A program made the position numbers. Of a DNA stretch of 64,000 nucleotides, positions 57,101 to 60,100 are shown in pieces. Each line of letters opens with the position of its first letter. Within the stretch, counting starts at the first letter, position 1. Source of the stretch: Escherichia coli (lineage in GTDB: Bacteria > Pseudomonadota > Gammaproteobacteria > Enterobacterales > Enterobacteriaceae); the NCBI RefSeq assembly GCF_030013205.1, contig NZ_CP122648.1. One strand, 5' to 3'.

Positions 57101-60100
57101 GGCTGACTGGTGTAAATAAACCGATGCGCGTGCGTGCGCTGCATGCACAAAACCAGCCAACAGAAACCGCCCATGCCGGGCAGCGTATCGCGCTTAACAT
57201 CGCGGGTGATGCGGAAAAAGAGCAGATTAACCGTGGCGACTGGCTGCTTGCCGATGTGCCGCCAGAGCCGTTCACGCGGGTGATTGTCGAGCTTCAAACC
57301 CATACGCCGCTGACCCAGTGGCAGCCGCTGCATATTCACCACGCCGCCAGCCACGTTACGGGACGCGTTTCGCTGCTGGAAGATAGCCTTGCCGAGCTGG
57401 TGTTCGACACGCCGCTGTGGCTGGCGGATAACGATCGCTTAGTGTTGCGCGATATCTCGGCCCGCAACACGCTGGCGGGGGCGCGTGTGGTAATGCTTAA
57501 CCCGCCGCGTCGCGGTAAGCGTAAGCCGGAATATCTGCAATGGCTGGCGTCTCTTGCACGAGCGCAGAGCGATGCCGATGCGTTATCTGTTCATCTGGAA
57601 CGCGGCGCGGTTAACCTTGCCGATTTCGCCTGGGCACGGCAGCTCAACGGCGAAGGGATGCGCGAACTATTGCAACAGCCTGGCTATATTCAGGCTGGTT
57701 ATAGCTTGTTGAATGCGCCGGTTGCCGCCCGCTGGCAGCGGAAAATTCTCGACACATTAGCGACTTATCATGAGCAACATCGCGATGAACCTGGTCCTGG
57801 GCGCGAACGTCTGCGACGTATGGCGTTGCCAATGGAAGATGAAGCGCTGGTACTGTTGCTGATTGAAAAGATGCGCGAAAGCGGCGACATCCTCAGTCAT
57901 CACGGCTGGCTGCATCTGCCGGATCACAAAGCAGGCTTCAGCGAAGAGCAGCAGGCCATCTGGCAAAAAGCAGAGCCGCTGTTTGGTGACGAACCGTGGT
58001 GGGTGCGAGACCTGGCAAAAGAGACGGGAACCGACGAGCAGGCAATGCGTCTGACGCTACGTCAGGCGGCGCAGCAGGGGATAATTACCGCGATCGTTAA
58101 AGATCGTTATTACCGTAACGATCGGATTGTCGAGTTTGCCAATATGATCCGCGATCTCGATCAGGAATGTGGTTCAACCTGCGCGGCGGATTTCCGCGAT
58201 CGCTTAGGCGTAGGCCGAAAACTGGCAATTCAAATTCTGGAATATTTTGACCGCATTGGTTTTACGCGTCGTCGGGGAAATGATCATTTACTGCGCGACG
58301 CAGGTGATGCTGCCAACTTACTGATTTAGTGTATGATGGTGTTTTTGAGGTGCTCCAGTGGCTTCTGTTTCTATCAGCTGTCCCTCCTGTTCAGCTACTG
58401 ACGGGGTGGTGCGTAACGGCAAAAGCACCGCCGGACATCAGCGCTATCTCTGCTCTCACTGCCGTAAAACATGGCAACTACAGTTCACTTACGCCGCCTC
58501 TCAGCCCGGTACGCACCAGAAAATCATTGATATGGCCATGAATGGCGTCGGATGTCGCGCCAGTGCACGCATTATTGGCGTTGGCCTCAACACGATTTTC
58601 CGCCACTTAAAAAACTCAGGCCGCAGTCGGTAACCTCGCGCATACAACCGGGCAGTGATGTGATTGTCTGCGCTGAAATGGACGAACAGTGGGGCTACGT
58701 CGGTGCTAAATCACGTCAGCGCTGGCTGTTTTACGCGTATGACAGGATGCGGAGGACGGTTGTGGCGCACGTCTTCGGTGAACGCACTCTGGCCACACTG
58801 GAGCGTCTTCTGAGCCTGCTGTCGGCCTTTGAGGTCGTGGTATGGATGACGGATGGCTGGCCGCTGTATGAATCACGCCTGAAGGGAAAGCTGCACGTTA
58901 TCAGCAAGCGTTATACTCAGCGCATTGAGCGGCATAACCTGAATCTGAGACAACATCTGGCAAGGCTGGGACGGAAGTCACTGTCGTTCTCAAAATCGGT
59001 GGAGCTGCATGACAAGGTCATCGGGCATTATCTGAACATAAAACACTATCAGTAAGTTGGAGTCATTACCCAGGACGTAAGGGAAAACGCCTCTGACTGC
59101 ATCATCGAATTTGAGTTTTGCCACCCCTGAAATAACGTTAAGCACATTGCCGATGGGCGGTGTAATTAAGCCGATTGAGCAGTTAATGATAAACATGACA
59201 CCGAAATAAATCGGATCGATTCCTGCCTCTTTAACTAAAGGCATTAATACCGGGGTAAGAATTAATACCGTCGGCGTTAAATCCATGACCATGCCGACAA
59301 TCAGGATAGCCACCATAATGACGATAAACAGCAGACGCGGTGAATCGACCAGCGGTTGCAGTAAATCAGAAACCATCATCGGCAGTTCAGCAATGGTGAT
59401 CAGCCAGGCGGAAACTTGTGCCGAGGCTACCAGAAACATCACCACTGAGGTCGTTTTCGCTGCGCCAATGAGCACATGCCAAAGTGTGGCGAAGGTCATT
59501 TCACGGTAAATAACTGTGGCGACAAACAGCGCATAGAAAGCAGCAACGGCCCCGGCTTCGGTAGGGGTAAACAGACCGGAGCGAAACCCGCCAATAATGA
59601 TGACTGGAAGAAACAGCGCCCAGATACCGGAGACAAAAGAGTGCCAGATTTCCTGCATCGTTGCTTTTTGCTGGCGGGGTAAATTAAGGCGACTGGCCTG
59701 CCACCACCAGGTAAGCATCAGCGTTGCGCCCATCATCATGCCAGGGGCAATGCCCGCCATAAACAGCTTACTGATGGATAATCCGCTGGAAACGCCGAAA
59801 ATAATAAACGGAATGGAAGGGGGAATAATTGGCGCGATAATGCCGCCAGAGGCAATCAGCCCCGCCGCCCGGTTGACCGGGTAGTTGGCGCTGCGCATCA
59901 TCGGCACCAGTAGAGCGGCAACGGCGGCGGTATCCGCAACGGCAGAACCAGAAAGGCTTGCCATAATCATAGCCGCCAGCACGCCGACGTAGCCCAGCCC
60001 GCCTGGTTTATGCCCCACCAGTTTCATCGGCAGGTCAACAATGCGTTTTGACAAGCCGCCCGCATTCATGATTTCACCCGCCAGCACAAAGAACGGTATC

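What the first reader, a model, noticed from the sequence alone, without database searches (positions are those of the whole stretch)
58303..59070. IS1 joins selB to yiaN with no target-site duplication, implying an IS1-associated deletion
Seen in sequence: a complete 768-bp IS1 with both inverted repeats lies between the 3' end of selB and a 3'-truncated yiaN. The 9 bp on each flank differ (cgcgacgca versus caggacgta), so there is no direct repeat. Established knowledge: simple IS1 insertion gives 8-9 bp direct repeats, and IS1 also promotes adjacent deletions that leave none. As I recall the K-12 order, selB and yiaN are separated by yiaO, lyxK, sgbH, sgbU, sgbE, yiaT, yiaU, yiaV, yiaW, aldB and yiaY. 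Inference: an IS1-mediated deletion of roughly 10 kb or more removed those genes in this strain.
Basis: partly seen in the sequence, partly recalled or inferred. Interest (0 to 1): 0.55.

Follow-up and report, generated by a model that had tools for sequence, protein, structure and literature searches.

The report
IS1-anchored deletion between selB and yiaN
A jumping gene (IS1) sitting at the end of selB has eaten away about 16 kb of neighbouring DNA up to yiaN in this pig-pathogenic E. coli; sister strains carry the same IS1 with shorter or slightly longer deletions, so this is a clear but ordinary example of a long-known IS1 behaviour.

Summary
A complete 768-bp IS1 lies at 58303-59070, and its 9-bp flanks differ. 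It joins selB, which has lost its last 21 nt, to yiaN, which has lost its last 75 nt.

The window is E. coli ETEC4079, an F18+/Stx2e+ pig isolate assembled from long reads. It lacks 12,031 bp relative to K-12. It lacks 15,936 bp relative to CFSAN018748, the closest IS1-free relative: yiaY, fic, aldB, a restriction gene, hicAB, GH127, MFS, araC-type, sgbE, sgbU, sgbH, lyxK and yiaO.

Thirteen sister genomes are 0-2 SNPs apart in 24 kb of flanks, RHS region aside. All share the identical selB|IS1 junction. The other IS1 end abuts three other positions, so the clone shows deletions of 5,528, 10,187, 15,936 (this window only) and 16,123 bp. Such a nested, one-sided series that starts exactly at the IS1 terminus is the classical signature of IS1-promoted adjacent deletion. 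The loss was probably stepwise.

No genome of 5,426 has selB beside yiaN without IS1, and none has the simple-insertion form with a target duplication.

Its K-12 gene list is partly wrong for this lineage. The mechanism is already known, so interest is low.

The parts
58303..59070 (+). Complete IS1-family insertion sequence (768 bp). It is 100% identical to the copy at the same selB site in ETEC4068 and K_EC180, and about 6.5% divergent from IS1A/IS1B-type copies.
58303..58325 (+). IRL, the left terminal inverted repeat
   Evidence: I1
59048..59070 (+). IRR, the right terminal inverted repeat. All four deletion classes of the clone begin at the base after its last C.
58358..59055 (+). insA (58358-58633) and the insAB' transposase frame, with the A6C -1 frameshift motif at 58609-58615. 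Annotated as intact.
56479..58329 (+). selB-IS1 fusion ORF (616 aa). Native selB ends at 58302. The last 6 codons and the stop are replaced by 8 IS1-encoded codons and TAG.
58294..58302 (.). Left flanking 9-mer CGCGACGCA. This junction is constant in all 14 genomes of the clone.
59071..59079 (.). Right flanking 9-mer CAGGACGTA, the presumed target of the deletion event. This junction is unique to ETEC4079 among 5,426 genomes.
59071..60273 (-). yiaN remnant: the first 1203 of 1278 nt. The annotated 427-aa ORF (58990-60273) reads 26 codons into IS1 antisense sequence.
60276..62344 (-). yiaM, yiaL and yiaK, the surviving promoter-proximal part of the yiaK-sgbE operon. It is now without its binding protein yiaO and the downstream catabolic genes.
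62546..63394 (+). yiaJ (plaR), the operon's IclR-type repressor gene. Intact.

Best explanation
An IS1 that had settled 21 nt before the end of selB in an ancestor of this porcine F18/Stx2e clone repeatedly made one-sided adjacent deletions from its IRR end.

In the established model, the IS1 transposase InsAB' joins the element's end to a staggered 9-bp target on the same chromosome. The DNA between the element and the target is lost as a non-replicating circle. IS1 stays in place with its old flank on one side and the new target on the other, so no target duplication is left.

In ETEC4079 the target was CAGGACGTA, 75 nt from the 3' end of yiaN. Most likely this was a second or third step, starting from an already deleted state like that of K_EC180 (5,657 bp further) or ETEC4068 (10,316 bp further). 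The cumulative loss is 15,936 bp.

Shown here: the breakpoints, the shared anchor junction, the nested endpoints, and the absence of a second IS1 or of the segment elsewhere. Inferred: the transposase-driven chemistry, the order of the steps, and the neutrality of the loss. On that last point, the operon was already broken by a 92-bp deletion in lyxK.
For: - **Shared anchor, different far ends.** Fourteen genomes share the identical selB|IS1 junction but have four different IS1|X junctions.
  - Class A: ETEC4068 and ETEC4075, 5,528 bp.
  - Class B: K_EC180, ETEC1748, ETEC4067, ETEC4069, ETEC4070 and ETEC4071, 10,187 bp.
  - Class C: ETEC4079, 15,936 bp.
  - Class D: W13-16, P15-25, ETEC6333, ETEC6334 and ETEC1701, 16,123 bp.
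- **Exact starts.** Every deletion starts at the base after ...GTCATTACC.
- **One clone.** The flanks differ by 0-2 SNPs per 24 kb between classes, apart from 11-13 differences and a 12-bp indel in ETEC4068's left flank, which includes the RHS gene.
- **Unchanged IS1.** The IS1 sequence is identical in classes A, B and C. Class D carries one private SNP, G627A.
- **No second IS1.** Class A and B genomes have an intact yiaN and no other IS1 end within 41 kb.
- **Segment truly absent.** It is missing from the ETEC4079 assembly.
- **AT-rich endpoints.** Mean AT in 30 bp is 0.65, against 0.49 for the interval (resampling p about 0.009). This fits IS1's known preference for AT-rich targets.
- **Intact transposase.** The gene is annotated as intact.
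- **Laboratory parallel.** The same pattern was seen in resistant derivatives of two clinical isolates: IS1 end fixed, other end variable, 11-66 kb lost. The authors attributed it to abortive IS1 transposition (PMC10569738).
- **Recognised cause of missing duplications.** Adjacent deletion is one of the accepted reasons (PMC11708052).
Against: - The simple-insertion ancestor, selB::IS1 flanked by a duplicated CGCGACGCA, was not found in 5,426 complete genomes. The first step is therefore unobserved.
- Sequence alone cannot separate intramolecular transposition from a second IS1 insertion followed by IS1-IS1 recombination. Both leave the same product and would share the same target preference.
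- The flanking SNPs are too few to order the four classes.
- Transposase dependence was not tested.
Confidence: 0.8

Rival explanations
1. Two-step route by homologous recombination. A second IS1 copy inserted into yiaN in the same orientation, giving a CAGGACGTA duplication. RecA-dependent recombination between it and the selB copy then removed the interval together with one IS1.
For: - The product would be identical: one IS1, unrelated flanks, and an AT-rich target.
- The chromosome holds about 20 IS1-related places, so new insertions are plausible.
- IS1 does insert simply into yiaN in another lineage, strain 167, with a 9-bp duplication.
- Recombination between IS copies is a recognised cause of missing duplications.
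Against: - No double-IS1 intermediate exists among 13 sister genomes. Class A and B genomes have an intact yiaN and a single IS1 in 41 kb.
- Four nested endpoints would need eight events rather than four, each new copy in the same orientation.
- The IS1 sequence is unchanged in classes A to C. This is only weak evidence, because other copies in the genome may be identical.
Confidence: 0.15
2. Assembly artefact. Two separate IS1 loci, one in selB and one in yiaN, were collapsed, and the intervening DNA was dropped or misplaced.
For: - IS1 is multicopy in this genome.
- The junction is seen in only one assembly.
- The assembly is ONT-only, and at least one essential gene (coaBC) is annotated as partial, which suggests residual errors.
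Against: - Coverage is 195x with read N50 5 kb and reads of at least 1 kb, combined as a Trycycler consensus of several assemblers. A 768-bp repeat is easily spanned.
- The 4.7-kb sgbE-yiaO segment is absent from the assembly, while every class A and B sister shows it at 100%.
- Independent assemblies from other laboratories (K_EC180 from Korea, W13-16 and P15-25 from France) show the same anchored IS1 with other endpoints. The biology is therefore real.
Confidence: 0.02
3. A single concerted event in an IS1-free ancestor. IS1 inserted and 15.9 kb were deleted at once (an IS-plus-deletion mutation), independently of the sister strains.
For: IS movements that coincide with a large deletion and leave no duplication have been reported (PMC11708052).
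Against: The same nucleotide-exact selB|IS1 junction, with the identical IS1 sequence, would have had to arise four times within one clone. That is implausible.
Confidence: 0.02

Closest known systems
IS1-promoted adjacent deletions (classical gal-region work of Reif and Saedler 1975; intramolecular or abortive transposition model). Cited from my own knowledge and, for the model, via PMC10569738.
   Same: - IS1 is retained intact.
- The deletion begins exactly at an IS1 terminus.
- The other endpoint is variable.
- No target duplication is left.
- Sizes are in the kilobase to tens-of-kilobases range.
   Different: - Seen here in natural isolates of one clone rather than under laboratory selection.
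- Transposase dependence is not demonstrated.
IS1-adjacent deletions of the nfsB region that cause nitrofurantoin heteroresistance (Wan et al. 2023, PMC10569738)
   Same: - Sibling isolates carry different 11-66 kb deletions.
- Each deletion lies immediately next to the same IS1 end (IS1A or IS1X2), with the other end variable and inside coding sequences.
- Resolved with long reads.
   Different: - Those deletions were selected by a drug and have a clear phenotype.
- Here no selective agent is evident, and the lost operon was already a pseudogene array (lyxK 92-bp deletion).
IS-associated deletions in the Lenski long-term experiment and the analysis of missing target duplications (PMC11708052; PMC4173774, listed)
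   Same: Absence of a target duplication is explained by adjacent deletion or by IS-IS recombination. The same two alternatives apply here.
   Different: - Those cases are mostly IS150 in E. coli B.
- This case is IS1 in a porcine pathogen.
Independent IS1-linked deletions of the same selB-yiaN interval in other E. coli lineages: TOK-001, 730V1, strain 1506, PM7, cM8a and Z503
   Same: - One IS1 replaces 5.6-14.0 kb (K-12 coordinates) between the selB/yiaY/yiaT side and the yiaN/yiaM/yiaL side.
- The flanks are unrelated.
- Strain 1506's yiaN endpoint is 6 bp from the window's.
   Different: - Different IS1 isoforms: 27-62 mismatches to the window's copy.
- Different left junctions: intergenic, in yiaY or in yiaT, with selB intact.
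- Hence they are separate events.

Membership tests
IS1 family insertion sequence | Length of about 768 bp with imperfect terminal inverted repeats of about 23 bp (GGTGATGCTGCCAACTTACTGAT...) | tested here: met
   768 bp. The 23-nt arms are 83% complementary.
IS1 family insertion sequence | insA and insB' frames joined by a -1 frameshift at an A6C motif to give the InsAB' transposase | tested here: met
   ORFs at 58358-58633 and 58552-59055. TTAAAAAAC is present, with the A6C motif itself at 58609-58615. PGAP annotates an intact transposase with programmed frameshift.
IS1 family insertion sequence | An 8-9 bp direct target duplication after simple insertion | tested here: not met
   The flanks are CGCGACGCA and CAGGACGTA, and they map 15.9 kb apart in CFSAN018748. 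This is expected if a deletion followed the insertion. It does not count against the element being IS1. Control: strain 167 shows a perfect 9-bp duplication.
IS-promoted adjacent deletion (intramolecular transposition) | The IS is retained and the deletion starts at the exact terminal nucleotide of the IS | tested here: met
   All four classes begin right after ...GTCATTACC.
IS-promoted adjacent deletion (intramolecular transposition) | Among relatives, one flank is constant and the other endpoint is variable and nested | tested here: met
   One left junction, with right endpoints at L006 positions 20001, 24660, 30409 and 30596, in 14 clonal genomes.
IS-promoted adjacent deletion (intramolecular transposition) | No pre-existing second IS copy at the distal endpoint | tested here: inconclusive
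   None is present in the 8 sister genomes that still hold the interval, and no second IS1 end is found in the two that were read in full, L002 and L003. An unsampled intermediate cannot be excluded.
IS-promoted adjacent deletion (intramolecular transposition) | Dependence on the transposase and independence from RecA | not testable with these tools
   This needs a genetic assay.
Deletion by homologous recombination between two direct IS1 copies | An ancestor or relative with two directly oriented IS1 copies bracketing the lost segment, each with its own duplication | tested here: not met
   Not found in the clone. A search for the duplication-bearing form of the selB copy in 5,426 genomes also found nothing. 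Absence of evidence only.

The most novel reading that the evidence does not exclude
The selB-anchored IS1 of this edema-disease clone may be an unusually active deletion generator. The selB-yiaN interval may also be a species-wide preferred site of IS1-anchored erosion: at least 7 lineages have lost it next to an IS1.

That would reflect either selection for loss of the yiaK-sgbE, aldB, yiaY or hicAB genes in some niches, or locally favoured IS1 targeting of this AT-rich, horizontally variable island.

My rough numbers do not show enrichment. The interval is about 0.3% of the genome, and the median genome has about 10 IS1 places. The cases were also found with a query that favours them.
Probability: 0.12. 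Interest if true: 0.4.

Novelty: already known. Interest (0 to 1): 0.2.

Why it matters
For this strain, the deletion explains three things:
- why 13 genes are missing, including the yiaO-sgbE sugar-acid catabolic genes, aldB, yiaY and a hicAB toxin-antitoxin pair;
- why selB has an altered C-terminus;
- why the gene annotated as full-length yiaN is in fact a fusion with IS1 sequence.

More generally, the four nested endpoints in near-identical genomes are a clean natural illustration of how fast a single IS1 can erode neighbouring DNA in a pathogen clone. The junctions could also serve as cheap sub-lineage markers for F18/Stx2e strains.

It does not reveal a new mechanism.

Tried and rejected
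- **Simple-insertion ancestor.** I searched 5,426 complete E. coli genomes with the IS1 end + CGCGACGCA + the native selB tail. There was no single-piece match. The hits were only IS1A/IS1B copies at other selB-yiaY intergenic sites.
- **IS-free selB-yiaN adjacency.** None found. Every genome with the two genes within about 850 bp has an IS1 between them.
- **Degenerate target duplication.** The flanks match at 6 of 9 positions, about 1% by chance. I rejected this reading because the two sites are 15.9 kb apart in the IS1-free relative, and the other endpoints share no such motif.
- **Endpoint hotspot at the yiaN 3' end.** Four endpoints from three lineages fall within about 200 bp. I make no claim from this, because my query included exactly that stretch and so favoured finding them.
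- **Ordering the four classes by flanking SNPs.** There are too few differences, 0-2 per 24 kb. The only marker is IS1 G627A, which is private to class D.
- **Literature.** A search for IS1 + yiaN + deletion gave nothing relevant. A search for 'ETEC4079' gave no hit. The strain is described as 'ETEC 4079' in PMC10151945.
- **IS1 isoform.** Its name was not determined, because no ISfinder library is available.

Full report
**What is in the window**

Window 58303-59070 is a complete 768-bp IS1. It has 23-nt imperfect terminal inverted repeats (pair I1). insA lies at 58358-58633, the A6C frameshift motif at 58609-58615 and the insB' frame runs to 59055. PGAP annotates the transposase as intact with a programmed frameshift.

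The 9 bp on the left are CGCGACGCA and the 9 bp on the right are CAGGACGTA. The left flank is selB. The ORF at 56479-58329 runs 27 nt into IS1, so the native C-terminus LLFPEK* becomes GDAANLLI* and the protein is 616 aa rather than 614. The right flank is yiaN on the minus strand, retaining 1203 of its 1278 nt. The ORF that PGAP calls yiaN (58990-60273, 427 aa) ends with 26 codons of IS1 antisense sequence.

**Source**

The 2-kb stretch around the element matches one record at 100% over its full length: E. coli ETEC4079 (NZ_CP122643.1), from pig faeces in Belgium. The window corresponds to record positions 96001-160000.

The strain is a haemolytic F18+, Stx2e+ isolate. It was sequenced with ONT at 195x, with a read N50 of 5 kb. 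It was assembled as a Trycycler consensus of several assemblers and polished with medaka (PMC10151945).

**Size and content of the gap**

The window lacks K-12 positions 3746007-3758037, which is 12,031 bp.

K-12 is not the right reference for this lineage, however. The closest IS1-free relative found is CFSAN018748, a Danish swine isolate. It differs by 44 SNPs in 14 kb of left flank and 5 in about 9 kb of right flank. Its gene order is selB-yiaY-fic-aldB-type I restriction gene-hicA-hicB-GH127-MFS-araC-type-sgbE-sgbU-sgbH-lyxK-yiaO-yiaN. Against it the window lacks 15,936 bp, which is 13 whole genes plus the two gene ends.

**The decisive comparison**

Thirteen other complete genomes carry exactly the same selB|IS1 junction, yet the other IS1 end abuts different DNA. 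Class membership of the strains I did not read directly follows from identical coordinate offsets.

| Class | Strains | DNA right of IS1 | Deleted vs CFSAN018748 |
|---|---|---|---|
| A | ETEC4068, ETEC4075 | CAGCTTATC..., about 500 bp upstream of hicA | 5,528 bp |
| B | K_EC180, ETEC1748, ETEC4067, ETEC4069, ETEC4070, ETEC4071 | AAAAAAGGT..., 127 bp upstream of the araC-type gene | 10,187 bp |
| C | ETEC4079 only | CAGGACGTA... in yiaN | 15,936 bp |
| D | O139:H1 W13-16 and P15-25, ETEC6333, ETEC6334, ETEC1701 | AGAATTAAT..., 187 bp deeper in yiaN | 16,123 bp |

- The flanks of all classes differ by only 0-2 SNPs in about 24 kb. The exception is ETEC4068's left flank, which includes the RHS gene and has 11-13 differences and a 12-bp indel.
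- The IS1 sequence is identical in classes A, B and C. Class D carries one private SNP, G627A.
- Class A and B genomes have an intact yiaN and no second IS1 end anywhere in the 41-kb loci.

This is one clone in which a fixed IS1 has produced a nested, one-sided series of deletions. Each deletion starts at the last base of IRR. Relative to class B the window's extra loss is 5,657 bp, and relative to class A it is 10,316 bp.

**Controls and refutation tests**

- Natural adjacency: no genome of 5,426 has selB and yiaN within reach of each other without an IS1 between them.
- Misplaced segment: the 4.7-kb sgbE-yiaO segment is found at 100% in every class A and B sister and in the IS1-free relatives, but not in ETEC4079.
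- Simple-insertion ancestor: none with a duplicated CGCGACGCA exists in the collection. The first event is therefore unobserved, and even class A is already a deletion derivative.
- Positive control: strain 167 has a plain IS1 insertion in yiaN with a perfect 9-bp duplication, GACGCGGTG. The method does see duplications when they exist.
- Partial flank similarity: the 6-of-9 match between the window's two flanks is coincidental, because the two sites map 15.9 kb apart.

**Mechanism**

The pattern has four features: IS1 retained, deletion from its exact terminus, one constant flank with variable distal ends, and no duplication. This is the textbook signature of IS1-promoted adjacent deletion by intramolecular or abortive transposition. 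A modern laboratory parallel shows the same anatomy at nfsB (PMC10569738). Adjacent deletion and IS-IS recombination are the recognised causes of missing duplications (PMC11708052).

The endpoints sit in locally AT-rich DNA. Mean AT over 30 bp is 0.65, against 0.49 for the interval (p about 0.009 for the four clone endpoints). That agrees with IS1's known target preference, which I recall from the literature and did not test here.

The main rival is a second IS1 insertion followed by recombination. It would give the same product and cannot be excluded from sequence alone. It needs twice as many events, and no intermediate is seen. I give it 0.15, against 0.8 for adjacent deletion. Assembly artefact and a single concerted event get about 0.02 each.

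**Consequences (inferred)**

- The yiaK-sgbE operon keeps only yiaK, yiaL, yiaM and a damaged yiaN. It was already defective in the clone, because lyxK carries a 92-bp deletion. The loss was therefore probably neutral.
- Whether the altered SelB tail matters is unknown.

**Wider context**

Independent IS1-linked deletions of the same interval occur in at least six other lineages: TOK-001, 730V1, strain 1506, PM7, cM8a and Z503. The 1506-type junction also appeared in HCP8S3_I1 and MSB1_1D, which I did not read. These events involve other IS1 isoforms and other left junctions, and they remove 5.6-14.0 kb in K-12 coordinates.

I do not claim a hotspot. The cases were found with a query that favours them, and a rough expectation from IS1 copy number does not show enrichment.

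**Verdict**

The phenomenon is already known. This particular junction appears in a single genome and was not found described in the papers searched. Interest is low (0.2). The nested natural series is a neat illustration, not a new mechanism.

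Noticed in passing
L007, L008, L009, L013, L014, L015 (TOK-001, 730V1, 1506, PM7, cM8a, Z503): Six other E. coli lineages have independently lost 5.6-14.0 kb (K-12 coordinates) of the same selB-yiaN interval next to a single IS1 with unrelated flanks. The IS1 isoforms and left junctions differ from the window's. Strain 1506's yiaN endpoint is 6 bp from the window's.
   Followed up: partly
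L016 4274-5041 (strain 167): A simple IS1B insertion inside yiaN with a perfect 9-bp target duplication, GACGCGGTG. It served as a positive control for detecting duplications.
   Followed up: yes
L002 29206-30610 versus L006 27835-29331: In every clone member that still has it, lyxK carries a 92-bp deletion and is annotated as frameshifted. The operon was therefore already inactivated before the larger IS1 deletions.
   Followed up: partly
window 58990-60273 and 56479-58329: PGAP names the yiaN-IS1 read-through ORF (427 aa, last 26 aa from IS1 antisense sequence) as full-length YiaN. It also names the selB-IS1 fusion (616 aa) as ordinary SelB. These annotations hide the truncations.
   Followed up: yes
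just right of the window end (NZ_CP122643.1 160085-161433; L012 26386-27734); L004 12199-13814: An IS1397 (IS3 family) copy lies between ysaA and avtA in the clone and is absent from CFSAN018748. In W13-16 it is followed by livJ instead of avtA, which suggests a further IS-associated rearrangement there.
   Followed up: no
window about 1832-3040: The essential gene coaBC is annotated as a partial pseudogene missing its C-terminus. This is probably a residual indel error of the ONT-only assembly or an annotation problem rather than biology.
   Followed up: no
window about 50026-54156 (RHS element core protein), compared with L002: Within 14 kb of left flank, which includes the RHS core gene, ETEC4068 differs from the other clone members by a 12-bp indel and about a dozen substitutions. 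The rest of the flanks are nearly identical. The annotated RHS gene is 4143 nt in ETEC4068 and 4131 nt in the others, which points to local RHS variation.
   Followed up: no
window 58294-58302 and 59071-59079: The two flanking 9-mers match at 6 of 9 positions (C..GACG.A), about 1% by chance. I judged this coincidental, because the sites are 15.9 kb apart in the IS1-free relative and the other endpoints lack the motif.
   Followed up: yes
IS1 position 627 (window 58929) in L004, L010, L011: All class D strains examined share a G-to-A change in the IS1 that is absent from classes A, B and C. It is a usable marker that class D is a single branch.
   Followed up: partly
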